Assembly (NCBI GenBank): GCA_022969815.1
Contig: GCA_022969815.1_4535.1
DNA: 64,000 bases
Source: Escherichia coli
GTDB lineage: Bacteria; Pseudomonadota; Gammaproteobacteria; Enterobacterales; Enterobacteriaceae
Direction: 5' to 3' (one strand)
Below, piece by piece: positions 2,366 to 57,251 of the stretch. Under the pieces are notes generated by a model. It was not told the DNA's origin. It saw nothing but the letters and a program-made list of their open reading frames with translations, and made no database searches. The translations under genes and the position numbers were made by a program. Position 1 is the first letter of the stretch, and each line of letters starts with the position of its first letter.

Positions 2366-3166
2366 ATGTCCAATAAAATTAGCCTGAAGAAACGCCAAGA
2401 CACCCTGACCATTTCACTGAAGAAAAAGAAAATCGTGAACGAAGATCAAAAGATCGTTCTGCGTGTTGCAAGTGCACTGGATATCTCCGGTAGCATGTCC
2501 AGCCTGTATCGTAACGGTACTGTAAGTGAGTTTGTTGGTAAGTTGCTTCCGTTTGGTATGCTGTTCGATGATAACGCGCAGATCGATATGTGGGCTTTCA
2601 ACAATAGCTCTCGTGAAATCACTCCAGCAACTGCTGATGTGTATGATGATTACGTTGGTAAATGCATTAATGGTCGTGTAACAGTCCAGGGTGGCACAAG
2701 CTATGCACCTGTTATGCAGGATATTTACGATTCCTACTTCGGTAGCACCACTAAATATGAAACTGTAGAAACTCCTGTAACCAAAGAAGTTCCTAAGAAA
2801 GGTTTCTTCAACCGTTTACTGGGTAAAACTGAAACTGTAGAAGCTGTTGTAGAAAAAACTGTAGCCGTTGCTGTGCCTGGTGTAGACGTTACTCCGGCAG
2901 TTGTGTTCTTCCAGACAGATGGTGAGAACGATGATCCGAGCCGTGTACTCTCCGTACTGGAAAAGAACAAGGGTAAACCTATCTACTGGTTCATGGTGGG
3001 TGTTGGTAGTGCTCGTTTCTCTTTCCTGAAAGATTTGGCTGAAGCTTACGACAACGTAGCATTCATTGGTCTGAACGATCTTTCCTTGACAGACGAGCAG
3101 CTTTACGATAAACTCTTGTCTGAAGAGTTCGGTGAGTGGGTCGAAAAGGTTGGTGCTAAGAAATGA
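2366..3166 (+). CDS. vWA-domain protein with TerD-like N-terminal tag (TerY-like)
   Basis: N-terminus MSNKISLKK...ISLKK nearly identical to the TerD ORF at 3683; DxSxS MIDAS-like motif (DISGSMSS) typical of von Willebrand A domains. Confidence 0.6.
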   Translation: MSNKISLKKRQDTLTISLKKKKIVNEDQKIVLRVASALDISGSMSSLYRNGTVSEFVGKLLPFGMLFDDNAQIDMWAFNNSSREITPATADVYDDYVGKCINGRVTVQGGTSYAPVMQDIYDSYFGSTTKYETVETPVTKEVPKKGFFNRLLGKTETVEAVVEKTVAVAVPGVDVTPAVVFFQTDGENDDPSRVLSVLEKNKGKPIYWFMVGVGSARFSFLKDLAEAYDNVAFIGLNDLSLTDEQLYDKLLSEEFGEWVEKVGAKK

Positions 3167-3405
3167 TCGACACGCTGATCTCTCAAACGGTGTTACAAGT
3201 GATGCGCGAGAGAGAAGCTTTCATCATGAAGGGTCTTAAAGATTACTTTGGGACTCTTTCTTTGGAAGAACTCAAGCTACGCGTTGAAATCCATCAGTAT
3301 CCTTTTTATGAAGAATGGATTGACAAAGCAAATAAAGCTGTTATAATGCGTATCAACAAACCAGAAATCACGACAGGAGGACAAGATGTTAAATTTCGCC
3401 ATTAA
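3163..3405 (+). CDS. hypothetical protein
   Basis: ORF overlapping upstream stop. Confidence 0.5.
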   Translation: MIDTLISQTVLQVMREREAFIMKGLKDYFGTLSLEELKLRVEIHQYPFYEEWIDKANKAVIMRINKPEITTGGQDVKFRH

Positions 3406-3667
3406 GAAAGATAGCAAACCAGAGATTCAGACTTGTCGCATTGCAAATCTTACACATCGGGATTTGTTTGTTCTGAAAAGCGCCTACGATGAAGACGGTC
3501 TTGACCCAGAAGCAGTCATCGTTTATATGGTATTGCGGCGAGACGAAGACACCAAGCACCCATATAATGCGGTAGAAATGAATTACAATGCAATGTTGTG
3601 TTCAATACACCATACGGCAGAGTTGGTGCAGGTAGAGTTAACAGTTAACGAAATTAAACTTAAATAA
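3386..3667 (+). CDS. small protein, paralogue B of duplicated cassette
   Basis: Shares N-terminal and internal motifs with 2092..2364; sits immediately upstream of the TerD gene in the same arrangement. Confidence 0.55.
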   Translation: MLNFAIKKDSKPEIQTCRIANLTHRDLFVLKSAYDEDGLDPEAVIVYMVLRRDEDTKHPYNAVEMNYNAMLCSIHHTAELVQVELTVNEIKLK

Positions 3668-37156: not shown

Positions 37157-37523
37157 GAGGTCGTCACCAAGGTTCTCAAGGCTTTGATTTTAAAGGAGTT
37201 TTTGTTAGTAACTCCCCCAGTTCTAACTTCGAACTGCTGCAACTTTCATTGCAGGAAAGACTATATCTTCATCTACGTGAGATGCTTCGCACTTCGCCCC
37301 ACTTGGGGCTACTCTACTCGCTTCCGTATCACTACGTGCTTTCGATAGTCGTTGAACTTTACTCTCGGTGAGAGTCTTAGCTGCTGATTACCCATTGTAC
37401 CATCTTGACAATTTTCAAGCATTCACGCCTGGCGTTGCCGCCTACGTTGTAGCTTGTCAAGCTTTAGGGAGTTCCAGCAATTCACGAAGTTTTCATTACC
37501 TTATCGCTAAGGTACGGCCCCTG
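37157..37523 (-). ncRNA. group I self-splicing intron (compact, no ORF) interrupting the tape measure gene; boundaries approximate
   Basis: On the minus strand the four conserved core elements occur in order: P AATTGCTGGAA (plus 37472-37482), Q AATCAGCAG (37381-37389), R GTTCAACGACTAT (37345-37357), S AAGATATAGTC (37259-37269), with P/Q and R/S pairings; region has no ORF. Confidence 0.75.
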
Positions 37524-38690
37524 TTAAGAAAGGCGACCAATCTGTGCCGAGTTCATGCCACGACGCTCACCTTCATTCACAGTTGCCTGTATGAAAGCTA
37601 ATGGATCGTTCTGCATGTGTTTAATTTGTGAAGGGTTCCAACCGAACATGTTCATGATATCGTTGATACCGTTATCACCCCCACGCCATTTTCCTTTTTT
37701 CTCATCCCATTCAGCAGCCATCATCGAGTTACCCAAACGTTCACGAACGTCTTTAAGGTTATCGATTGACTTAATAATGTTTGCCGAGTCAACACCGTTC
37801 TGTTCACCCCAAGCAGTCATTGTCATAATGGCGTTAGCGTTTGCCTGAACGTTCTCTGCACCACGACCTATGAACTTGATACGATCGTTAGCAGTTTGTA
37901 ACGTATTACCTACAACAGAACCACCTGCAAACAGTCCTGCACCAATCATGGATGAAACCATCATGCGAGGATTAAGGCCCAAAGCGCCATCTCTCATTTG
38001 CGAGTATTGACGATCTTTATCTCGGCGTTGCTGTGCCAGTTCACGTTTATGGTTACGCTCAATATCACGTAGCTCTTTATCACGCATACGCTGACGTTGT
38101 TTGGCTTCTGCTTCCAATTCACGACGAACTCGACGACGACCACGTACTTCATCTTCGATATCTTTTACTTTCTCTCGGTGAGATCGACGAAGATTATCAA
38201 GCTGGTGGGCCAGTGTCTGGTTCATACGTTGAAGAGTGATATCTCCACGTTTGTACGATTCTACAGAAGCATCCATGATTTGTTTGGCTTGGCGTTGCGC
38301 ATCTAAGGAAGCTTTGGTATACTGCATACCACGCTTTTCAAAGTTCTCCATACGGAGATTGCCTAAATCATTACGACGAGCCTGTAGCTCGGCAGCGCGT
38401 TCTTCTGGAGTTTTCTTTCCTGGTTTAGCTGGACGACCAGGACCGGAGGTAGTTCCACCACCTTTTGGAGTAGGAGGGGGAGCAGGGCGAGCAGGGAAAG
38501 TCTGCGCTTTACGCATTTCTCTTTCGATCTCTTTCATCTGCTGCCTAAACTTACTCATGTTTAAGGTGGGCTGTATTCTTTCAGCGAACTTTTTAACACT
38601 CTCTACAGAATCTTTGGCTTCTTTGAGACTGTTCTTGTCCACCTTAAATGTGACTACGTTACTGATTTTAGCCGCGTTTATATCTAACAA
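37524..38690 (-). CDS. tail tape measure protein, N-terminal segment (5' exon; the annotated TAA stop is probably inside the intron)
   Basis: 388-aa charged coiled-coil protein rich in R/K/E/Q; located after tail tube and chaperone genes; too short alone for a tape measure. Confidence 0.55.
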   Translation of the reverse strand: MLDINAAKISNVVTFKVDKNSLKEAKDSVESVKKFAERIQPTLNMSKFRQQMKEIEREMRKAQTFPARPAPPPTPKGGGTTSGPGRPAKPGKKTPEERAAELQARRNDLGNLRMENFEKRGMQYTKASLDAQRQAKQIMDASVESYKRGDITLQRMNQTLAHQLDNLRRSHREKVKDIEDEVRGRRRVRRELEAEAKQRQRMRDKELRDIERNHKRELAQQRRDKDRQYSQMRDGALGLNPRMMVSSMIGAGLFAGGSVVGNTLQTANDRIKFIGRGAENVQANANAIMTMTAWGEQNGVDSANIIKSIDNLKDVRERLGNSMMAAEWDEKKGKWRGGDNGINDIMNMFGWNPSQIKHMQNDPLAFIQATVNEGERRGMNSAQIGRLS

Positions 38691-44007: not shown

Positions 44008-45006
44008 TTAAGCAGTGGTCAGACGAACAATCAGTTCTGGGCGAACGTTAACTGCCAGAAGAGAGAATTCAGACTGAAGACTTACAGTACGGTGCTCACT
44101 GATCATGAACGTGTACAGTTCACGAGCAACAGTGTTAGCCAGTTCTGGAGTATCCGCAGGAGCGTAGTGCGCCTGGAACATATCCGCGATACCCATAGGC
44201 AGAACATATGCTTCACCAGCAGGGATGTTACCGTGAATATCTTCGATGTAGGTTACGCCGTTCCATTCGAACACCTGAACGTCCATGTTACCGTTCAGAC
44301 GGTCACGCAGGAGGTTAGGAGTGCCCTGGAAGTACTGGTAAGCCTGACGAACGAACGGAGAGTTAACCAGAGAAGCGAAGAACTCACGAGAGCACAGAGC
44401 AACGATACGAGTAGCGGTAGAACCGTCTTGTTTTTCGTCGATGATGTATGCACGAGCTTCTTGCTCAACGGTAGCCGCTGGAGAAACAGTGGTAGAAGCG
44501 AAATCTACAGGAACTGATTTCTGGGTAGCGCCCCACTCGGTGTACCAGTTGTACGCAGAGTTAGCAGCGCCGCCGCCAGTGTATGCACGACCCATTACTG
44601 CTTCAGCAAAGATCTTCTCTTTGGTTTTTGCAGCATCGCGCAGAATCTGCGTCATATAACGGTTAACTACTTCTGCTTCAGTACGCAGAGAGTCGTTGAT
44701 ACCAGCCATAGCGAAGCTACGGAAAGACTGGATATCTTGAGCTTTGATGTTCTTATCCAGTGGGAAGAATGGGATACGGAACACTTTGACTTCTGGAGTA
44801 TCCATAGTCAGGAAGTTACGCTCACCACCACGTTCACGGGCAGGAATCAGACCATCTTGAGTTTTTTGTTTGCCGATTTCAACAACGGTAGTTGCATGGT
44901 ACTGTACATCAAACAGACCCAGGCTGGCAATCAGTGTATCAGGAGTATCCTGAAGTTCGATCATTGGGCTGAAATCAACAACCTGATCTAAAATTACTGC
45001 TGGCAT
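44008..45006 (-). CDS. major capsid protein, lambda gpE-like
   Basis: 332 aa; size and sequence character consistent with the lambda E capsid family; preceded by a decoration-protein-sized ORF and followed by a strong terminator. Confidence 0.6.
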   Translation of the reverse strand: MPAVILDQVVDFSPMIELQDTPDTLIASLGLFDVQYHATTVVEIGKQKTQDGLIPARERGGERNFLTMDTPEVKVFRIPFFPLDKNIKAQDIQSFRSFAMAGINDSLRTEAEVVNRYMTQILRDAAKTKEKIFAEAVMGRAYTGGGAANSAYNWYTEWGATQKSVPVDFASTTVSPAATVEQEARAYIIDEKQDGSTATRIVALCSREFFASLVNSPFVRQAYQYFQGTPNLLRDRLNGNMDVQVFEWNGVTYIEDIHGNIPAGEAYVLPMGIADMFQAHYAPADTPELANTVARELYTFMISEHRTVSLQSEFSLLAVNVRPELIVRLTTA

Positions 45007-53455: not shown

Positions 53456-53575
53456 GATTTGTCCTATTAAGTATTTAGTGTTTAGTGGGTTGTGCGTTTT
53501 AGGAGTCGCACCCCTCCCTCTTAGAAGGAACCAGGCAAGGTCTTCAAAGATACCGCTGGCGCGATATTTGGAGGC

Positions 53576-53654
53576 GGGAATCGGATTCGAACCGATGATC
53601 TCCAGCATATGAAACTGGCGAGGACGACCAAACTCCTCTATCCCGCTATTAGGT
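53576..53654 (-). tRNA. tRNA-Met (anticodon CAU), CCA encoded; A1/C72 mismatch suggests initiator or Ile2 identity
   Basis: Hand-folded cloverleaf: D-stem GAGG/CCTC, anticodon stem CCAGT/GCTGG, loop TTCATAT, T-arm ATCGG-TTCGAAT-CCGAT. Confidence 0.7.
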
Positions 53655-53660
53655 GTCCCG

Positions 53661-53729
53661 TGCTGGATTCGAACCAGCATCACAATAGTTGTGGATCTCT
53701 TATCCTGTAAGTCTAACGGGAAACTGGTT
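53661..53729 (-). tRNA. tRNA-like element, non-canonical (possible pseudo-tRNA)
   Basis: Intact T-arm (GCTGG-TTCGAAT-CCAGC) and 6/7 acceptor pairing, but I could not fold a canonical D-arm or a 5-7-5 anticodon arm; no encoded CCA. Confidence 0.35.
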
Positions 53730-53731
53730 GT

Positions 53732-53805
53732 TTCGACAAGAATCGAACTTGTATCTCACGATTATCAGTCGTGGGTTCTACCATTGAACTACGAAACATT
53801 TAATT
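53732..53805 (-). tRNA. tRNA-Ile (anticodon GAU), CCA encoded
   Basis: Acceptor TGTTTCG/CGAAACA, D-arm GTTC-AATGGTA-GAAC, anticodon arm CACGA-CTGATAA-TCGTG, T-loop TTCGATT. Confidence 0.75.
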
Positions 53806-53821
53806 GGTAGGAATTGCAGGA

Positions 53822-54163
53822 TTACCAAGTAACATCATGCCCTGAATGGAAAGCGCAATGACAGTTCTTACAGAGTAAGACGCAATTCTCTATCTCTTTG
53901 TCTATTCTTGCAAGTGACCAGCCACGCATAGATCCGTAGTTCTTATCTTTTATTGCTGGGTCAAGATGGTGAATATCCAAAGATTCTTCATACTGATTAA
54001 ATCCGCAAGCGGCGCACTTACCTCCTAACTTATCACGAGCATATTTTTTCTTATGTTGTCCAAGTTCTGTCGTATACTTATTATGACAGGCTCCACAAAT
54101 AGATTTCTTATGTCCGTAGAATTTCGTAGGATCTTCTTCGCCACAATGACTGCATTTACACAT
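53822..54163 (-). CDS. HNH homing endonuclease inserted in the tRNA cluster
   Basis: Cys-rich with HHLDP ... N ... LLCKNCH (HNH-type motif); sits between tRNA genes. Confidence 0.65.
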   Translation of the reverse strand: MCKCSHCGEEDPTKFYGHKKSICGACHNKYTTELGQHKKKYARDKLGGKCAACGFNQYEESLDIHHLDPAIKDKNYGSMRGWSLARIDKEIENCVLLCKNCHCAFHSGHDVTW

Positions 54164-54184
54164 ACAAAAAATCTCTTTACAAAT

Positions 54185-54260
54185 TGGTCAGCCTAAGAAG
54201 ACTTGAACTTCTAACCTCACCGCCCCAAACGGCGCACTCTTCCAATTGAGCTATAGGCTG
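54185..54260 (-). tRNA. tRNA-Pro (anticodon UGG), CCA encoded
   Basis: Acceptor CAGCCTA/TAGGCTG, anticodon arm CGCCG-TTTGGGG-CGGTG, T-loop TTCAAGT. Confidence 0.75.
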
Positions 54261-54460
54261 TTAATAAAAAATCTCACGTCTTATACAAGCTAACCTTTTG
54301 CCTGATGCATGAAATTTAAATACATTCTAAAGGTACACCGTAAAAGATTGTCGGGGCGATACTTCAAAAACATACCGATCCGTAGATCGATAATCAGACA
54401 AACTTCGACGGCTCCTCGTTTTTAACTTCACACTTAAGGTAGTGACTCACCTTTGTTATA

Positions 54461-54536
54461 TGGCTGGTCTGTCTGGATTTGAACCAAACCTACGACAGTC
54501 AAAGTGTCGTGTGCTACCGGACTACAATACAAACCA
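54461..54536 (-). tRNA. tRNA-Gln (anticodon UUG), CCA encoded
   Basis: Acceptor TGGTTTG/CAGACCA, anticodon arm CGACA-CTTTGAC-TGTCG, T-loop TTCAAAT; D-stem looks to be 3 bp. Confidence 0.65.
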
Positions 54537-54626
54537 TTTAATGAAGGGCAACCAGAAGAGGTGTGAGAGAAGGAGAAAACCATGAGTAAAAGAGAAAGTT
54601 TTCTGGCAACCCTTTATTAAATAATT

Positions 54627-54700
54627 TGGAGCGTTCTACGAGTTTCGAACTCGTGCCGCCGACTTGGAAGGACGGAATGCTACCGCTACACCAAGAACGC
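54627..54700 (-). tRNA. tRNA-Gly (anticodon UCC), CCA encoded
   Basis: Acceptor GCGTTCT/AGAACGC, anticodon loop CTTCCAA, T-loop TTCGAAA; one U-U mismatch in the anticodon stem. Confidence 0.65.
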
Positions 54701-55268
54701 CCTACATCTTTACTATACTACATTTTACTATCAGTTGTCAATAGTTTTATTGGGCGGGACAGTGACGAGTATCCCATTGGGTGACTAACCCTACGTTCGG
54801 TTGTGATTAATCTCCTGGGTGTCGCTTGCAACACTGGAAAACTCTCACGTCGATGGGAGAATCCGCTTCTTCTTTACCCCATCCAACCCTACTCCGGTCA
54901 AGTTTCAGGTGACTCTTTTTGTGATCAACACAATACTAAGAACACTGTCTTTCGAGCAGACCTTGTGCACAGGATACGACGATCAATCACAGTGCTCTTA
55001 ATGTTGTGCCACAATAATAAGAACATTCAAACGATGACCACTTTTAGTGGAGAGATTTACAAAATGCTCTTAATGTTGTGTTGTGAATACTAACCTCGGA
55101 ACTCATTACCGCGCTTTGGCTCGACCTTATTACAGGTTAGTGAATGTCTTTCGTCCGATTACATTCAATAAATTTGCTTTCTTCACAACGATAAGAACAC
55201 TTAACAGAAGATAGGTCTGATTGCCTCGGATGATTTCTCAGTAGCCTAAATGTTCTTACCTGTTATGT

Positions 55269-55344
55269 TGGTGCTCCAAGTAGGACTCGAACCTACGACC
55301 TCATGCTTACAAGGCAAGTGCTCTACCAACTGAGCTATTGAAGC
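55269..55344 (-). tRNA. tRNA-Thr (anticodon UGU), CCA encoded
   Basis: D-arm GCTC-AGTTGGTA-GAGC, anticodon loop CTTGTAA, T-arm GTAGG-TTCGAGT-CCTAC. Confidence 0.7.
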
Positions 55345-55696
55345 GTATTGCGCCCCTTCAGCCATGCTTGATGTTGACCAGAACACAGTTAAACTGTGGG
55401 AGGAGGAACACCGCAGGGGGCTTCAGTTGGACGACTTACAGGGAGCGACCCTGTTTCTTTTCTGGGACTCGGCAGGATTCGATACCTGCAATTCCAGAAG
55501 CCTCTTGGCAACTGAGGGTTTACCTTAACCCTACAAGTCCATAATTCTTAAATACTTTGGAGCCTTACTGATAAACCGTTAGTTTGTAACATAGCGTATT
55601 TCCATTCTGGGGCACCGCCTGTGAATGTAATTCCAATACAAACTTTCTCAAGATCAAACCAATTATCAAATAACATTACAACCTCCAGTTTGAATT

Positions 55697-55780
55697 TGGT
55701 GTGAGATGATGGATTCGAACCACCGCGCCTTTCAGAAGGGATTTACAGTCCCCCGCAATCGACCACTCTGCCAATCTCAC
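55697..55780 (-). tRNA. tRNA-Tyr (anticodon GUA), long variable arm, CCA encoded
   Basis: Acceptor GTGAGAT/ATCTCAC, anticodon arm GGGGA-CTGTAAA-TCCCT, 12-nt variable arm, T-loop TTCGAAT. Confidence 0.7.
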
Positions 55781-55904
55781 AAAATTGTTTTTAAAGTAGC
55801 CAGTATTCGCGGTACTGACTATGCGGTATCGGAGATGGTGAGAGCCATCTGCCGAAAGTTTACTCTGTTAAAGTAAGAAACAACAAGCTACATTAAAAAC
55901 AACT

Positions 55905-55990
55905 TGGCGGTAGATGTAGGACTCGAACCTACACGCCGTTTCCGACTACAGTTTAGCAAACTGTTGTGGCTACCATTTCACCAATCTACC
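55905..55990 (-). tRNA. tRNA-Ser (anticodon GCU), long variable arm, CCA encoded
   Basis: Acceptor GGTAGAT/ATCTACC, anticodon arm ACAGT-TTGCTAA-ACTGT, 15-nt variable arm, T-loop TTCGAGT. Confidence 0.7.
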
Positions 55991-55996
55991 TAAATT

Positions 55997-56086
55997 TGGA
56001 GGAAGGTAATGGAGTCGAACCATCACCGTATCTCTACAATGGGCCAGGGTTCAAATCTGGTTGCGTACCACTACGCCCTACCTTCC
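55997..56086 (-). tRNA. tRNA-Ser (anticodon UGA), long variable arm, CCA encoded
   Basis: Acceptor GGAAGGT/ACCTTCC, anticodon loop TTTGAAC with A31-C39 mismatch, long variable arm, T-loop TTCGACT. Confidence 0.6.
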
Positions 56087-56321
56087 ATACATTTAATCTA
56101 ACATAAAACGATGTTGATTGTCAACACCTTTTAAAACATTTTATTATGAATGGTGACTCCACCAACCCCCGTTCTCCACGAACGGTACTCTTCGAGCAAT
56201 CTACCCTTGCAATCAAACGTTGTACACCGTTAGCTTACTCATGCATATTTGCCTCATTCTCTGCCAACCATGATCAGTGGTAGGGTTCAAATCACTTGAG
56301 CTAATTCATACTAAAATGTTC

Positions 56322-56396
56322 TGGTGTCTTTACAAGGAATCGAACCTTGACTAAGAGTTTAGAAGACTCCTGTGCTATCCATTACACCATAAAGAC
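56322..56396 (-). tRNA. tRNA-Arg (anticodon UCU), CCA encoded
   Basis: Acceptor GTCTTTA/TAAAGAC, anticodon arm GGAGT-CTTCTAA-ACTCT, T-loop TTCGATT. Confidence 0.75.
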
Positions 56397-56398
56397 GT

Positions 56399-56473
56399 TG
56401 GTGGCCCTGACTGGTTTCGATCCAGTTGCCTATCGGTTATGAGCCGACTGCTCTCCCATTGAGCTACAGGGCC
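56399..56473 (-). tRNA. tRNA-Met or Ile2 (anticodon CAU), CCA encoded; unusual A at T-loop position 54
   Basis: Acceptor GGCCCTG/CAGGGCC, D-arm GCTC-AATGGGA-GAGC, anticodon arm GTCGG-CTCATAA-CCGAT, T-loop ATCGAAA. Confidence 0.65.
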
Positions 56474-56684
56474 GTAAATGTGGTAACAGAGACGTTGAAA
56501 GTAGTAGGAAGTAGCTACCATTCCTCGGACGTAAGCCCAACATTCAGCGTAAATGTTCTTGAGCCGAAGCTTTTCCATATGTTCTTTGGTAGCTAACCTC
56601 CGAACAAGTAGCCTCTAACATCTCCCCGATGCAAATCCGTCTTAACAACAGTCAACGACCCTGTTACCACACTTGATAAAGCGT

Positions 56685-56713
56685 ATCTTAACAAAATAAG
56701 ACACGCTTGTCAA
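56685..56713 (-). promoter_or_regulatory. sigma70-like promoter reading into the tRNA cluster (minus strand)
   Basis: minus-strand TTGACA (plus 56708-56713), 17-nt spacer, TAAGAT (plus 56685-56690), AT-rich UP-like region upstream. Confidence 0.45.
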
Positions 56714-56730
56714 TACTTATTTCAAATATT

Positions 56731-56979
56731 TTAGGCGTAATCTTGAACCTCTTCAGAGTCACGTTTTTCAAGTAGTGCTATAACAAGTGCTTCAGCATTT
56801 TGCCAAGAGTTCTCCAGGTCCATTTGACGCATAAGAGCCAGGAAATCGATAACTTTAACGTCCTCGTTGATGACGATCCTAACACCGTCTTCACTCTCGG
56901 TAACATACTTCTCTGGGTTGAACATGAAGATTGCTCCACCTTCACCGTCAGTCAACACATGTTTTTCTACTAAAGACAT
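56731..56979 (-). CDS. hypothetical protein
   Basis: ORF with minus-strand AGGAGG-type RBS. Confidence 0.45.
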   Translation of the reverse strand: MSLVEKHVLTDGEGGAIFMFNPEKYVTESEDGVRIVINEDVKVIDFLALMRQMDLENSWQNAEALVIALLEKRDSEEVQDYA

Positions 56980-56990
56980 ATTGATTCCTC

Positions 56991-57251
56991 CTAATCGATT
57001 GTTTGTTCGTCCTCCATTACATTAGAAATGAGAACGTCTGTTATACCTTGATGCTGATAGACCCTTTCGGGGCTGTCGTCAAATGCCAAGCCTGTACATA
57101 TCGAACAGAGATCTGACTCTTGAATAATTCCATTTTTATCACGTCTGGAATGGTTAGTCAAGTGTCTGTTACAAGCCCGACAACGAAAATAAAAATTGTT
57201 TTGCATAAATCCTTCGAACCCCAAAATGGGGAGTAATCGGCATCTCCTCAC
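56991..57251 (-). CDS. hypothetical zinc-ribbon protein
   Basis: CRACN ... CSIC motif; true start may be an internal Met. Confidence 0.4.
   Translation of the reverse strand: MRRCRLLPILGFEGFMQNNFYFRCRACNRHLTNHSRRDKNGIIQESDLCSICTGLAFDDSPERVYQHQGITDVLISNVMEDEQTID

What the first reader, a model, noticed from the sequence alone, without database searches (positions are those of the whole stretch)
54700..55268. ORF-free gap in the tRNA cluster with direct repeats and a recurring TAAGAACA motif
About 570 nt between tRNA-Gly and tRNA-Thr has no convincing ORF or canonical tRNA. It contains an exact 16-bp direct repeat, TGCTCTTAATGTTGTG, at about 54993 and 55065, and three copies of a (C/A)TAAGAACA(C/T)T-like motif near 54936, 55017 and 55192. 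This could hold phage-specific promoters, processing sites or a small non-coding RNA. A second gap at 55350-55690 and a third at 56090-56320 contain further hairpins (for example CCGTTCTCCACGAACGG at about 56168-56184) and a fragment resembling a D-loop fused to a T-loop (TCAGTGGTAGGGTTCAAATC, about 56274-56293).
Basis: seen in the sequence. Interest (0 to 1): 0.45.

Follow-up and report, generated by a model that had tools for sequence, protein, structure and literature searches.

The report
Shuffled RNA hairpin cassettes between phage tRNAs
The "repeats" in this gene-free gap are the two arms of a conserved RNA stem that closes a chain of small folded RNA modules transcribed with the phage's tRNAs; the same stem occurs in phage lambda and in many other phages with many different inserts, and none of the matches I listed is annotated as such.

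Summary
The 16-mer occurs exactly twice (54993-55008, 55065-55080). TAAGAACA occurs three times on the + strand and once inverted, all inside the 568-nt gap.

The motifs are not promoters. Read on the tRNA (minus) strand, they are the 5' and 3' arms of a ~19-bp helix, CACAACAnnUAAGRGCA / UGYUCUUAnnnUUGUG. This helix closes three hairpin units: A, C and D. A fourth unit, B, lies between A and C.

- Units A and D covary strongly across unrelated phages.
- The B core is a 38-nt element found in about 990 phage records, including T4.
- Unit C is unique to this phage and lies exactly between the two 16-mers.
- Close relatives differ by whole units, as cassettes would.
- The same stem sits just after tR' in the lambda late leader. 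About 98 IMG/VR loci carry it, with roughly 30 different inserts.
- No Rfam family matches any unit.
- The gap ends in a strong sigma-70 promoter for tRNA-Gly.

The second gap holds a homologue of T4 rnaD (species 2 RNA).

Best reading: these are co-transcribed structured RNA modules, probably excised by RNase III. Their apical domains are conserved, but their function is unknown. No expression data were available.

The parts
55269..55344 (-). tRNA-Thr(UGU), whose encoded CCA end is followed directly by unit A
   Evidence: ARAGORN; Rfam tRNA 73.7 bits
55184..55268 (-). Unit A. A Y-type hairpin: 5' arm ACAUAACAGGUAAGAACAUUUA, 43-nt apical domain, 3' arm UUAAGUGUUCUUAUCGUUGUG
   Evidence: MFE -24.5 kcal/mol, z = -3.5 on the minus strand against -15.4 kcal/mol, z = -0.65 on the plus strand. 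Found in 28 phage records. Helix 96.3% paired, 9 pairs with changes on both sides, 0 of 500 shuffles reach this
55204..55246 (-). A core GGCUACUGAGAAAUCAUCCGAGGCAAUCAGACCUAUCUUCUGU. Nearly invariant from E. coli phages to Xanthomonas jumbo phages. Contains a UGA-GAAA-UCA tetraloop hairpin that covaries (A-U to C-G)
   Evidence: Alignments A1 and A2. Absent from 185,579 bacterial and archaeal species genomes apart from one chance hit inside a coding region
55081..55189 (-). Unit B. An X-type unit closed by GUUGUGAA / UUCACAA(C), with two inner arms (GAAUGU..ACAUUC and ACUAACCU..AGGUUAGU)
   Evidence: Fold. 85% identical over 135 nt to Klebsiella phage Pylas, where it also lies between two Y-type units
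55102..55138 (-). B core AACCUGUAAUAAGGUCGAGCCAAAGCGCGGUAAUGAG, a 37-38 nt element
   Evidence: blastn with unit B finds 992 phage records, mostly matching this core alone at 87-97%. In T-even phages it lies in the untranslated stretch upstream of vs.8. In rV5-like FV3 it lies upstream of the tRNA cluster
55010..55080 (-). Unit C. A Y-type hairpin with an insert unique to this phage. With one extra G it is the 72-nt period between the two exact 16-mers
   Evidence: phiWec188 lacks exactly this unit. The insert has no match in 50,697 phage records, IMG/VR or the metagenome collection. MFE -19.5 kcal/mol, z = -5.4
54929..55008 (-). Unit D. A Y-type hairpin with a conserved apical domain UGAUUGAUCGUCGU..UCUGCUCGAA. 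In phAPEC8-type relatives it follows tRNA-Thr directly
   Evidence: 79 phage records and 11 of 5426 E. coli genomes, in prophages. Helix 97.5% paired against 42-55% when slid, with 7 pairs changed on both sides. MFE -28.6 kcal/mol, z = -4.3
54993..55008 (-).
55065..55080 (-).
54919..54933 (-). Small hairpin UUGUG-UUGAU-CACAA, an 'empty' X-type site after unit D
   Evidence: Read from the sequence; conserved in relatives
54742..54918 (-). Tail specific to Phapecoctavirus. It has several hairpins, including GAUGGGG..CUCCCAUC at 54852-54883, and a variable middle part
   Evidence: Alignment and RNAalifold: 39 pairs, 4 with compensatory changes. The fold is not better than shuffled sequence (z = -0.8)
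54712..54741 (-). Sigma-70 type promoter TTGACA-18-TATAGT for tRNA-Gly and the tRNAs downstream of it
   Evidence: 11 of 12 consensus positions. Conserved in all six relatives, and kept after the 710-nt insertion in ZCKP1
54627..54700 (-). tRNA-Gly(UCC), first gene of the next transcription unit
55345..55457 (-). Homologue of T4 rnaD (species 2 stable RNA), ending just before tRNA-Thr.
   Evidence: 81% over 85 nt to the phage ECO4 counterpart, and 86% over 36 nt to T4 rnaD, with a compensatory CCGG/CCGG to CAGG/CCUG change. MFE z = -2.6 on the minus strand against -0.1 on the plus strand
56095..56124 (-). Sigma-70 type promoter (TTGACA-18-TAGATT) at the downstream end of the third gap, upstream of the two tRNA-Ser genes
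   Evidence: conserved in relatives
56168..56184 (-).
   Evidence: Invariant stem in five Phapecoctavirus sequences. The gap is conserved only within Stephanstirmvirinae

Best explanation
**What it is.** The gap is the 3' trailer of one tRNA transcription unit, read on the minus strand. From 5' to 3' it contains:
- tRNA-Thr;
- hairpin unit A;
- cloverleaf-like unit B;
- hairpin unit C;
- hairpin unit D;
- a small empty hairpin;
- a lineage-specific tail;
- the sigma-70 promoter of the next unit, which starts with tRNA-Gly.

**What the repeats are.** Its 5' arm is CACAAC-A-nn-UAAGRGCAyUn and its 3' arm is nAGUGYUCUU-nnn-GUUGUG. That gives about 19 bp with one bulge and one 1x1 loop. The stem presents a 40-48-nt apical domain that differs between units. 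Its outermost 6 nt, GUUGUG and CACAAC, can instead close the unit lying between two hairpins (the X type, here unit B). In other phages that intervening unit is a tRNA-like element.

**How it most likely works.**
- *Shown:* these are conserved RNA structures on the tRNA strand, and they belong to a large family that includes a hairpin just after tR' in the lambda late leader.
- *Inferred:* the units are co-transcribed with tRNA-Thr.
- *Inferred:* the long imperfect duplex is cut by host RNase III, in the way the stalks of rRNA operons and the T7 and lambda processing hairpins are cut. This would separate the tRNA from its trailer and release the apical domains as small RNAs of about 45-65 nt.
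- *Inferred:* the nearly invariant apical cores (A, B, D) bind some factor or act in trans. Their target is unknown.
- *Shown by comparison:* the shared arms coincide with the break-points at which whole units are gained, lost and exchanged between phages. That this happens by recombination at the arms is inferred.
For: **Strand and fold.**
- The minus strand folds with z = -3.0 and the plus strand with z = +0.2. For units A-D alone the values are -3.8 and -0.7.
- Each of A, C and D folds on its own into the predicted hairpin and is 3-9 kcal/mol more stable than its complement. G-U pairs in the stems would be A-C mismatches on the other strand.

**Covariation.**
- Unit A: 22 pairs, 96.3% paired against 36-48% with slid partners, 9 pairs changed on both sides, 0 of 500 shuffles reach this.
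- Unit D: 20 pairs, 97.5% paired against 42-55%, 7 pairs changed on both sides.
- Across 78 distinct Y stems from IMG/VR, the first pair inside the fixed search pattern is GC 41, CG 18, UA 6, UG 5. That is 92% paired against 47% when shuffled.

**Conservation of the cores across unrelated phages.**
- Unit A occurs in Phapecoctavirus, Taipeivirus, Kuttervirus, Gamaleyavirus, Jedunavirus, a Bas81-type siphovirus and Xanthomonas jumbo phages. In the jumbo phages it sits on a different stem directly after tRNA-Tyr-CCA.
- The B core occurs in about 990 records.
- Unit D occurs in lambdoid and other (pro)phages.

**Cassette behaviour.**
- phAPEC8 and phiWec179 have only D. SF1-1 and phiWec188 have A+B+D. 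The window has A+B+C+D. All break-points fall at the arm sequence.
- Bas81 and Sashavirus carry D at the position where T765, nithesis and fGh-Ecl02 carry A.

**Family.**
Of these, 98 have the outer arms, and they carry roughly 30 different inserts.
- Lambda has one at 44,788-44,862, right after tR'.

**Orientation.** All 15 units that have a called tRNA in the fetched locus (up to 5 kb on each side) lie on the same strand as that tRNA, at a median distance of 221 nt.

[quoted passage not shown] It is cited as reference 49 of PMC7547250.
Against: - No transcript, 5'/3'-end or RNase III data exist for this phage in the tools I had.
- I could not read the 1988 lambda paper. Whether its RNase III sites lie in this hairpin is therefore unverified.
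- The outer arms can pair in two registers, and lambda's MFE and centroid structures differ in exactly this respect. The in vivo fold is therefore uncertain.
- Unit B as a whole is not more stable than shuffled sequence (z = -1.3). The two small helices of its core are invariant, so they neither support nor contradict a structure.
- Unit C has no homologue, so its apical domain has no comparative support.
- High nucleotide identity between unrelated phages (88-95%) could reflect recent transfer rather than selection.
- Most family members in prophages have no canonical tRNA nearby: 83 of 98 units had none in the fetched locus.
Confidence: 0.6

Rival explanations
1. Decayed relics. The units are remnants of tRNA, tRNA-like or tmRNA-like genes and their spacers. 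They were carried along by recombination, are still transcribed, but have no function of their own.
For: - X-type units in other phages are tRNA-like. PGAP calls one a 'pseudogenic tRNA-Gly'. Lambda's X unit ends ...CAGCACAA-C-CCA.
- In Pylas a Y stem encloses a T-arm.
- The units co-occur with tmRNA-like tag regions.
- Close relatives do without A, B and C.
- Unit C is an orphan.
Against: - The 43-nt A core is nearly invariant between Xanthomonas jumbo phages and E. coli phages, while its stem changes by compensatory substitutions. Relics should decay in the core as well.
- The D core and the 38-nt B core behave the same way, the latter across about 990 genomes.
- ARAGORN and Rfam see no tRNA or tmRNA signal in the gap, even at E <= 10.
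Confidence: 0.15
2. DNA-level element. The inverted and direct 16-mers are binding sites (iterons or operators) for a DNA-binding protein, part of a replication origin, or sites for a site-specific recombinase that moves the cassettes.
For: - The repeats cluster in an ORF-free stretch.
- Whole units are gained and lost exactly at the repeats.
- An HNH endonuclease gene lies in the same cluster.
Against: - The two strands differ by 27 kcal/mol in folding energy.
- Stems contain many G-U pairs that are A-C on the other strand. They also keep pairing through double substitutions. A DNA-binding site has no reason to show this pattern.
- Units always share the strand of neighbouring tRNAs, 15 of 15.
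- In lambda the element lies in a well-mapped transcribed leader, not at ori.
Confidence: 0.08
3. Self-cleaving 3'-processing element. Unit A, which directly follows the CCA end of a tRNA here and in the jumbo phages, would be a ribozyme that trims the tRNA trailer, as HDV-like theta ribozymes do in gut phages.
For: - Unit A starts at the first base after tRNA-Thr-CCA in the window, and within about 3 nt after tRNA-Tyr-CCA in XbC2-type phages.
- It has an invariant 43-nt core on a variable stem, as is typical of catalytic or ligand-binding RNAs.
- Theta ribozymes are documented next to phage tRNAs (PMC10879173).
Against: - No Rfam ribozyme family (HDV, hammerhead, twister, twister-sister, pistol, hatchet, hairpin) matches at E <= 10.
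- A simple closing hairpin encloses the whole core, which is not the nested double pseudoknot of HDV-like ribozymes.
- The CUGAGAA stretch lacks the essential G8 of the hammerhead core (read from the sequence).
- In T765, nithesis and Bas81 unit A does not follow a tRNA.
Confidence: 0.07
4. The TAAGAACA motif is a phage-specific promoter or other transcription signal.
For: The motif is over-represented in the window, 14 copies against 3.4 expected.
Against: - Inside the gap every copy is one arm of a hairpin and is matched by its complement 40-50 nt away.
- The ten copies outside the gap are scattered on both strands.
- The extended 16-mer is confined to the gap.
- A canonical sigma-70 promoter already accounts for transcription of the next tRNA.
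Confidence: 0.03
5. Unannotated small proteins are encoded on the + strand (ORFs of 96, 60 and 43 aa).
For: The ORFs exist. One relative, PsgM04F, annotates hypothetical proteins across the region.
Against: - There are no Pfam or PHROG hits.
- The ORFs are cut by the presence or absence of whole units in close relatives.
- Conservation follows RNA pairing, not codons.
Confidence: 0.02

Closest known systems
Hairpin in the phage lambda late-operon leader, just downstream of tR' (lambda 44,788-44,862). RNase III processing of this leader was reported by Daniels et al. 1988
   Same: - Same closing helix: lambda has CACAACAGGUAAGAGCAUUG / CAGUGCUCUUUCCGUUGUG, and window unit D has CACAACAUUAAGAGCACUG / CAGUGUUCUUAGUAUUGUG.
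- Same design, a stem of about 19 bp with an apical insert of about 40 nt.
- In both, a unit closed by GUUGUG..CACAAC follows.
   Different: - The apical insert is different.
- Lambda's copy lies in an mRNA leader, not in a tRNA cluster.
- Whether the mapped RNase III sites fall in this hairpin could not be checked, because the paper is not held.
- The GenBank record of lambda does not annotate the element.
T4 rnaC and rnaD (species 1 and 2 stable RNAs of the T4 tRNA cluster)
   Same: - They are small structured RNAs of unknown function, encoded between or after phage tRNA genes on the same strand. From general knowledge, they are processed from the tRNA precursor.
- The window has a true rnaD homologue in the neighbouring gap, 55345-55457.
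   Different: - Units A-D share no sequence with rnaC or rnaD.
- The T4 RNAs are not enclosed by the Y stem and are not known to be modular.
RNase III processing stalks of rRNA operons, and the T7 early and lambda N-leader RNase III hairpins (general knowledge)
   Same: A long imperfect duplex, formed by sequences flanking a structured RNA within a polycistronic precursor. A length of about 20 bp with small internal loops suits E. coli RNase III.
   Different: Cleavage is not shown here. The stem sequence is conserved far beyond what RNase III specificity would require.
HDV-like theta ribozymes next to phage tRNAs (PMC10879173)
   Same: A compact conserved RNA placed directly at the 3' end of a phage tRNA.
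   Different: The topology is different, and there is no match to any Rfam ribozyme model. No catalytic-core signature was recognised.
GOLLD and ROOL large ornate RNAs of phages (Rfam families; general knowledge)
   Same: Structured non-coding RNAs of unknown function in ORF-free stretches of phage genomes, often beside tRNA genes.
   Different: - No Rfam hit.
- Here the RNA is a chain of small interchangeable units, not one large fold.
- The host range is enterobacterial, not Firmicutes or freshwater.
PeSL 'promoter-early stem-loop' cassettes that mediate modular shuffling in T4-type genomes (from memory: Arbiol et al. 2010, not checked here)
   Same: Short conserved sequences at module boundaries, at which genome segments are exchanged between phages.
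   Different: PeSLs are terminator-plus-promoter DNA signals flanking genes. Here the conserved sequences are arms of RNA helices that flank RNA domains.

Membership tests
Y-stem hairpin family (type example: lambda late leader 44,788-44,862) | 5' arm CACAAC-A-nn-UAAGRGCAyUn paired with 3' arm nAGUGYUCUU-nnn-GUUGUG | tested here: met
   Units A, C and D carry both arms with 1-5 substitutions per 19 nt, and these substitutions keep the pairing. For comparison with lambda and 78 distinct IMG/VR stems.
Y-stem hairpin family | Variable apical insert of about 28-55 nt on an otherwise constant stem | tested here: met
   The inserts are 43 nt (A), about 40 nt (C) and about 48 nt (D), and are unrelated to one another. 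The family shows roughly 30 insert types.
Y-stem hairpin family | Helix maintained by compensatory change (an RNA-level constraint) | tested here: met
Y-stem hairpin family | Cleavage by RNase III in vivo | not testable with these tools
   Only the title of Daniels et al. 1988 could be confirmed. The paper is not held.
T4 rnaD (species 2 RNA), applied to 55345-55457 only | Sequence homology to T4 rnaD, same strand as the tRNAs and adjacent to one | tested here: met
   86% over 36 nt to T4 rnaD and 81% over 85 nt to the ECO4 homologue, with one compensatory pair. The element ends at the base before tRNA-Thr.
tRNA | Cloverleaf with D, anticodon and T arms, recognised by ARAGORN or by the Rfam tRNA model | tested here: not met
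   No call in 54701-55268. There is no Rfam tRNA hit there at E <= 10.
tmRNA | Tag reading frame with a resume codon, plus a tRNA-like domain | tested here: not met
   The window has no tag-like motif beyond chance and no Rfam or ARAGORN tmRNA. Homologues of A, B and D in other phages do lie beside tmRNA-like tag regions.
HDV-like / theta ribozyme | Nested double pseudoknot (P1, P1.1, P2, P3, P4) with a catalytic C in J4/2, cleaving at its own 5' end | tested here: not met
   No HDV-family hit in Rfam at E <= 10. The covarying helix encloses the whole element as a plain hairpin. The published RNArobo descriptor itself was not run.
GOLLD / ROOL | Match to the Rfam covariance models | tested here: not met
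   The scan finds no promoter-like site at any motif copy. The one strong site, 54741->54712, is unrelated to the motif.

The most novel reading that the evidence does not exclude
The Y stem is the common scaffold of a widespread, so far uncatalogued class of phage RNA cassettes. A constant, nuclease-cleavable helix would display dozens of interchangeable apical RNA domains. Phages of many families, lambda included, would swap these by recombination at the arms and express them as processed small RNAs. These RNAs might act as decoys or regulators aimed at host translation, tRNA-targeting defences or competing phages. The cassettes are often chained with tRNA-like and tmRNA-like elements. Under this reading, the window's gap is a four-cassette array of that system, and its unit C is a newly acquired domain.
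Probability: 0.3. Interest if true: 0.8.

Novelty: new variant of a known kind. Interest (0 to 1): 0.6.

Why it matters
Phage tRNA clusters are usually annotated as tRNAs separated by meaningless spacers. Here one spacer is a chain of conserved RNA modules.

- **An overlooked shared stem.** The closing stem is shared with the late leader of phage lambda and with about a hundred IMG/VR loci. A lambdoid late-leader stretch containing such a unit also matches, at least in part, 957 of 5426 complete E. coli genomes. No Rfam family and no listed GenBank or RefSeq annotation covers it. An abundant RNA element of the best-studied phages may therefore have gone unnoticed.
- **Conserved cores without a function.** The apical cores (A, D and the 38-nt B core present in T4-like genomes) are conserved well enough to suggest specific partners. 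They are cheap to test by Northern blot, in rnc mutants and by deletion.
- **A concrete example of shuffling.** The cassette polymorphism between near-identical phages shows how non-coding modules are shuffled between unrelated phages.
- **A possible link to translation.** The same loci in other phages carry unannotated tmRNA-like tag regions. This would connect the modules to manipulation of translation or ribosome rescue.

Tried and rejected
**Known RNA families.**
- Rfam 15 at E <= 10 on 52-58 kb, and at gathering threshold on the whole window, found only tRNAs and one group I intron elsewhere. Known ribozymes, riboswitches, GOLLD/ROOL, YrlA and tmRNA are therefore rejected for the gap.
- Hidden tRNA or tmRNA: ARAGORN finds nothing. 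The window has no tag-like motif.
- HDV-like, hammerhead and twister readings of units A and B were tried by hand against remembered consensus sequences. I dropped them because the topology or essential bases do not fit and Rfam is silent.

**Protein coding.** The gap ORFs have no Pfam or PHROG hit. The 113-aa ORF of FV3 that follows the B core is unrelated to the window's HNH protein. T4 Vs.8 gave no useful domain hit.

**Host mimicry.** blastn of A-D against 5426 E. coli genomes found only unit D, in prophages. The A core against 185,579 species genomes gave one chance hit inside a coding sequence.

**Origin of unit C.** There is no match in the phage records, IMG/VR or the metagenome collection.

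**Motif outside the gap.** A fuzzy search for arm motifs elsewhere in the window returned only noise, with no further exact copies.

**Literature.**
- I found no paper describing the stem sequence, phage tmRNA-like loci or an RNA upstream of vs.8.
- The 1988 lambda RNase III paper is not held.
- vs.8 is discussed only as an ATPase-like protein.

**Other gaps.** A link between the other gaps of the cluster and the modular family was not found. The third gap is conserved only within the subfamily.
Full report
**1. Context**

The window comes from a Phapecoctavirus-type myovirus (Stephanstirmvirinae). Positions 53500-57000 are 98.7% identical to Escherichia phage phiWec188 and about 88% identical to phAPEC8. 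Eleven tRNA genes lie on the minus strand between 53569 and 56473. The finding concerns the 568 nt between tRNA-Gly (54627-54700) and tRNA-Thr (55269-55344). Everything below is therefore read on the minus strand, in the direction of tRNA transcription.

**2.

- The 16-mer occurs exactly twice, at 54993-55008 and 55065-55080. With up to three mismatches there are eight matches in the window against 0.81 expected, and five of them are in the gap.
- TAAGAACA occurs at 54937, 55018 and 55192 on the + strand.
- The window holds 14 copies against 3.4 expected, and four of them fall in these 568 nt.
- ARAGORN and Rfam see no tRNA, tmRNA or any other family in the gap, even at E <= 10.
- Mechanical ORFs of 96, 60 and 43 aa on the + strand have no Pfam or PHROG hit. 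They are also interrupted by indels in relatives.

**3. What the repeats are**

On the tRNA strand the 16-mer reads CACAACAUUAAGAGCA, and the TAAGAACA copies read UGUUCUUA. The two are complementary, with one G-U pair that exists only on this strand. They alternate along the gap as 5' arm, insert, 3' arm, three times.

This defines three hairpin units:
- A, 55184-55268;
- C, 55010-80;
- D, 54929-55008.

Each unit has a closing helix of about 19 bp, which I call the Y stem. Its layout is 6 bp, a bulged A, 2 bp, a 1x1 loop, then 10-11 bp.

Folded alone, the units give:

| Unit | Minus strand MFE (z) | Plus strand MFE |
|---|---|---|
| A | -24.5 kcal/mol (-3.5) | -15.4 kcal/mol |
| C | -19.5 kcal/mol (-5.4) | -16.8 kcal/mol |
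| D | -28.6 kcal/mol (-4.3) | -20.7 kcal/mol |

The whole gap folds with z = -3.0 on the minus strand and +0.2 on the plus strand.

Unit B (55081-55189) lies between A and C. It is closed by the outermost parts of the neighbouring arms, GUUGUGAA and UUCACAA, and has two inner arms.

After D come:
- a minimal hairpin UUGUG-UUGAU-CACAA;
- a 177-nt tail found only in Phapecoctavirus, with a few weakly covarying hairpins;
- a near-consensus sigma-70 promoter, TTGACA-18-TATAGT, at 54741->54712. It lies immediately upstream of tRNA-Gly and is conserved in every relative.

**4. The gap is a mosaic of units shared with unrelated phages**

blastn of the gap shows that different segments have different relatives.

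*Unit A* occurs in 28 phage records. These include:
- a subset of Phapecoctavirus;
- Klebsiella Taipeivirus;
- an Enterobacter Kuttervirus;
- Gamaleyavirus (N4-like);
- Jedunavirus;
- the siphovirus Bas81;
- the 368-kb Xanthomonas phage XbC2. Two related IMG/VR jumbo contigs and one 72-kb IMG/VR contig carry it as well.

In an alignment of ten versions, the 43-nt core is almost invariant while the stem changes by compensation:
- AAGAACA/UGUUCUU, AAGGGUA/UGUCCUU, AAGAGCA/UGCUCUU and AAGGGCA/UGCCCUU all occur.
- The jumbo phages use a completely different stem, CACUAC/GUAGUG.
- Overall, 96.3% of cells pair against 36-48% with slid partners. Nine of 22 pairs have changes on both sides, and no shuffle out of 500 reaches the observed values.

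*Unit D* occurs in 79 phage records and in prophages of 11 of 5426 E. coli genomes. In a Klebsiella lambdoid phage it lies 180 nt after four tRNAs, between Q and the holin gene. Its helix pairs in 97.5% of cells against 42-55% when slid, with seven doubly changed pairs. This includes a fully re-coded 19-bp stem in a Sashavirus.

*Unit B* is 85% identical over 135 nt to a segment of Klebsiella phage Pylas, where it also lies between two Y-type units.
- Its 38-nt core, AACCUGUAAUAAGGUCGAGCCMAAGYGCGGUAAKG, is found in 992 phage records.
- In T4-like phages it sits in the untranslated stretch between denV or ipII and vs.8. Three annotations start vs.8 60-80 nt downstream of it, and the T4 record probably starts the gene too early.
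- In the rV5-like phage FV3 it sits upstream of the tRNA cluster.
- Its two small helices never vary, so only conservation supports it. Flanking pairs show a few compensatory changes, read by eye.

*Unit C* has no homologue in 50,697 phage records, IMG/VR or the metagenome collection.

**5. Cassette behaviour**

Aligning the Thr-Gly gap of six Phapecoctavirus genomes shows whole-unit differences:

| Phage | Units present | Gap length |
|---|---|---|
| phAPEC8, phiWec179 | D only, directly after tRNA-Thr-CCA | 313-316 nt |
| SF1-1, phiWec188 | A+B+D | 496-497 nt |
| window | A+B+C+D | 568 nt |
| ZCKP1 | D, plus a 710-nt insertion carrying an XRE/HigA-like ORF just before the promoter | 1027 nt |

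- Every junction falls in the arm sequence.
- The 72 nt that the window has and phiWec188 lacks are exactly one period between the two 16-mers.
- The arms of C and D are 31 of 32 identical although their inserts are unrelated. I read this as local homogenisation or as insert replacement within a fixed stem.
- In other phages, A and D occupy the same slot after the same pseudoknot-like sequence. T765, nithesis and fGh-Ecl02 have A there, while Bas81 and Sashavirus have D.

**6. The family, and lambda**

- Of 122 hits, 98 also have the outer arms cACAACAGG...tCCGTTGTG, which the pattern did not require. The rest look like chance matches.
- They carry 70 distinct inserts in about 40 similarity clusters. 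Roughly 30 of these clusters belong to genuine units.
- The first base pair inside the fixed pattern covaries: GC 41, CG 18, UA 6, UG 5, which is 92% paired against 47% when shuffled.

One of these inserts is that of phage lambda itself. At lambda 44,788-44,862, immediately after the tR' terminator of the 6S RNA and 320 nt upstream of gene S, lies CACAACAGGUAAGAGCAUUG-[37 nt]-CAGUGCUCUUUCCGUUGUG. A unit closed by GUUGUGCUG...CAGCACAA follows it and ends in C-CCA. The lambda record annotates nothing there.

A 601-nt stretch of a lambdoid late leader containing such a unit matches, at least in part, 957 of 5426 complete E. coli genomes. The listed matches carry no annotation other than tRNAs. 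No Rfam model hits eight such loci, and no paper in the library prints the stem sequence.

In other (pro)phages the units between Y hairpins are tRNA-like, with an acceptor-type stem UUGUGGU/ACCACAA, a T-arm and N-CCA. PGAP labels one of them 'pseudogenic tRNA-Gly'.

Where a canonical tRNA is present in the fetched locus, it is on the same strand in 15 of 15 cases, at a median distance of 221 nt. However, 83 of 98 units have no tRNA nearby.

**7. Mechanism**

*Shown:*
- conserved RNA-level structure on the tRNA strand;
- modular exchange at the arms;
- membership of the lambda-type Y-stem family;
- a promoter that ends the gap.

*Inferred:*
- The units are transcribed as the trailer of tRNA-Thr. 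No terminator-like site lies between them.
- The ~19-20-bp imperfect duplex is cut by RNase III. This is how comparable stalks are processed in rRNA operons and in T7 and lambda transcripts (general knowledge). A 1988 paper reports RNase III processing sites in the lambda late transcript (title confirmed), but I could not check that they fall in this hairpin.
- Cleavage would free the tRNA 3' side and release the apical domains.
- The near-invariance of the A, B and D cores over large phylogenetic distances argues that they do something specific, such as binding a protein or another RNA. I have no evidence for what that is.

I put about 0.85 on 'conserved structured RNA modules of the lambda-type family'. 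I put about 0.5 on RNase III processing and about 0.35 on a trans-acting role for the excised domains.

**8. Rivals**

- *Functionless relics of tRNA or tmRNA genes* (0.15). This fits the tRNA-like neighbours and the dispensability of A-C, but not the invariant cores on covarying stems.
- *A DNA-level site, such as iterons, an origin or a recombinase site* (0.08). Strand asymmetry, G-U pairs and compensatory change contradict it.
- *A self-cleaving tRNA-trailer ribozyme* (0.07). This is attractive for unit A because it abuts the CCA end here and in jumbo phages, as theta ribozymes do. But no ribozyme model matches and the topology differs.
- *A promoter motif* (0.03) and *small proteins* (0.02) have little support.

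**9. The other two gaps**

*Second gap (55345-55696).* Positions 55345-55457 are a homologue of T4 rnaD, the 'species 2' stable RNA that follows tRNA-Arg in T4.
- It is 86% identical over 36 nt to T4 rnaD and 81% over 85 nt to the ECO4 counterpart.
- It has a compensatory change in the first hairpin.
- Folding gives z = -2.6 on the minus strand against -0.1 on the plus strand.

*Third gap (56087-56321).* It is conserved only within Stephanstirmvirinae.
- It contains a sigma-70 promoter at 56124->56095.
- It contains a 12-nt identity with the anticodon arm of tRNA-Ser(UGA), not a D/T-loop fusion.

Most spacers of the cluster fold better than shuffled sequence.

**10. A side finding**

In several phages, homologues of A, B and D lie in ORF-free arrays of 1-1.5 kb. 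These arrays also contain a tmRNA-like tag region, for example AUAAAU-GCA AAC GAU GAU GUU AUU CUG AUG GCG GCG UAA UAG, which encodes ANDDVILMAA.
- Rfam tmRNA models score it below threshold, and ARAGORN does not call it.
- blastn finds this region in 769 phage records, including Kuttervirus, Felixounavirus, Gamaleyavirus, HK620 and several siphovirus groups. None of the listed matches is annotated as RNA.
- The window has no such tag.

**11. Novelty and score**

The general kinds are known: processed stable RNAs in phage tRNA operons, and RNase III-type processing hairpins. What I could not find described is:
- the shared Y stem as a scaffold for many interchangeable apical domains;
- its presence from lambda to virulent myoviruses;
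- the individual A, B and D cores.

My literature access was limited, and the key lambda paper could not be read. I therefore file this as a new variant of a known kind, with interest 0.6.

Noticed in passing
L006 1035-1125; L005 1340-1425; L007 845-955; L004 1973-2060; L008 1090-1125; L024 780-815: Unannotated tmRNA-like tag regions occur in virulent and temperate enterobacterial phages. Examples are ANDDVILMAA*, ANDNTFLAVA* and ANDSEVLMAA*, each preceded by AUAAAU and followed by pseudoknot-like sequences. Rfam tmRNA_permuted and beta_tmRNA score them below threshold and ARAGORN is silent. blastn finds the region in 769 phage records (159 at 80% coverage or more), including Kuttervirus, Felixounavirus, Gamaleyavirus and HK620. 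The window has none.
   Followed up: partly
L146 989-1145 (lambda 44,788-44,944): The lambda late leader, right after tR', carries a Y-stem hairpin followed by a unit closed by GUUGUGCUG/CAGCACAA that ends in C-CCA, like a tRNA 3' end. Neither is annotated. The equivalent unit in an E. coli prophage is labelled 'pseudogenic tRNA-Gly' by PGAP (L025 966-1080).
   Followed up: partly
L002 1001-1038 (T4 64,859-64,896); L019, L021, L022 around 701-738: The 38-nt B core is conserved upstream of vs.8 throughout T4-like phages, within a conserved non-coding stretch of about 200 nt. The T4 record starts vs.8 about 100 nt further upstream than three other annotations do, so that the ORF swallows this element.
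   Followed up: partly
window 37237-37540 (-): A group I catalytic intron (Rfam RF00028, 84.6 bits, E = 4e-20). The host gene was not examined.
   Followed up: no
window 53822-54163 (-): An HNH homing-endonuclease ORF (113 aa; PHROG 2255, E = 2e-23) is inserted between tRNA-Ile and tRNA-Pro. In phiWec188 these two tRNAs are 6 nt apart and the ORF is absent.
   Followed up: partly
L017 about 2790-3500 (Klebsiella phage ZCKP1): In the same Thr-Gly gap, a 710-nt insertion carries an XRE/HigA-like antitoxin ORF. It lies just upstream of the tRNA-Gly promoter and is flanked by direct repeats GTCCCACTCAA.
   Followed up: no
window 53654-53722 (-): A weak tRNA-like match (Rfam tRNA 21.3 bits, E = 0.75) between tRNA-Met and tRNA-Ile. 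It may be a degenerate tRNA.
   Followed up: no
window 56474-56684, 55781-55904, 54537-54626 (-): Other spacers of the cluster fold much better than shuffled sequence. The leader before tRNA-Met has z = -4.9, the Ser>Tyr spacer -4.7 and the Gly>Gln spacer -4.4. They share no sequence with the modular family.
   Followed up: partly
window 56282-56293 (-): GAUUUGAACCCU is identical to 12 nt of the anticodon arm of the neighbouring tRNA-Ser(UGA). It is conserved in relatives and has no tRNA fold around it. Unexplained.
   Followed up: partly
record OR584014.1 (hit H3): 'Pseudomonas phage PsgM04F', with host listed as Pseudomonas coronafaciens, is 97.6% identical to this E. coli-type Phapecoctavirus across the tRNA cluster. 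This could be an unusual host assignment or a labelling issue.
   Followed up: no
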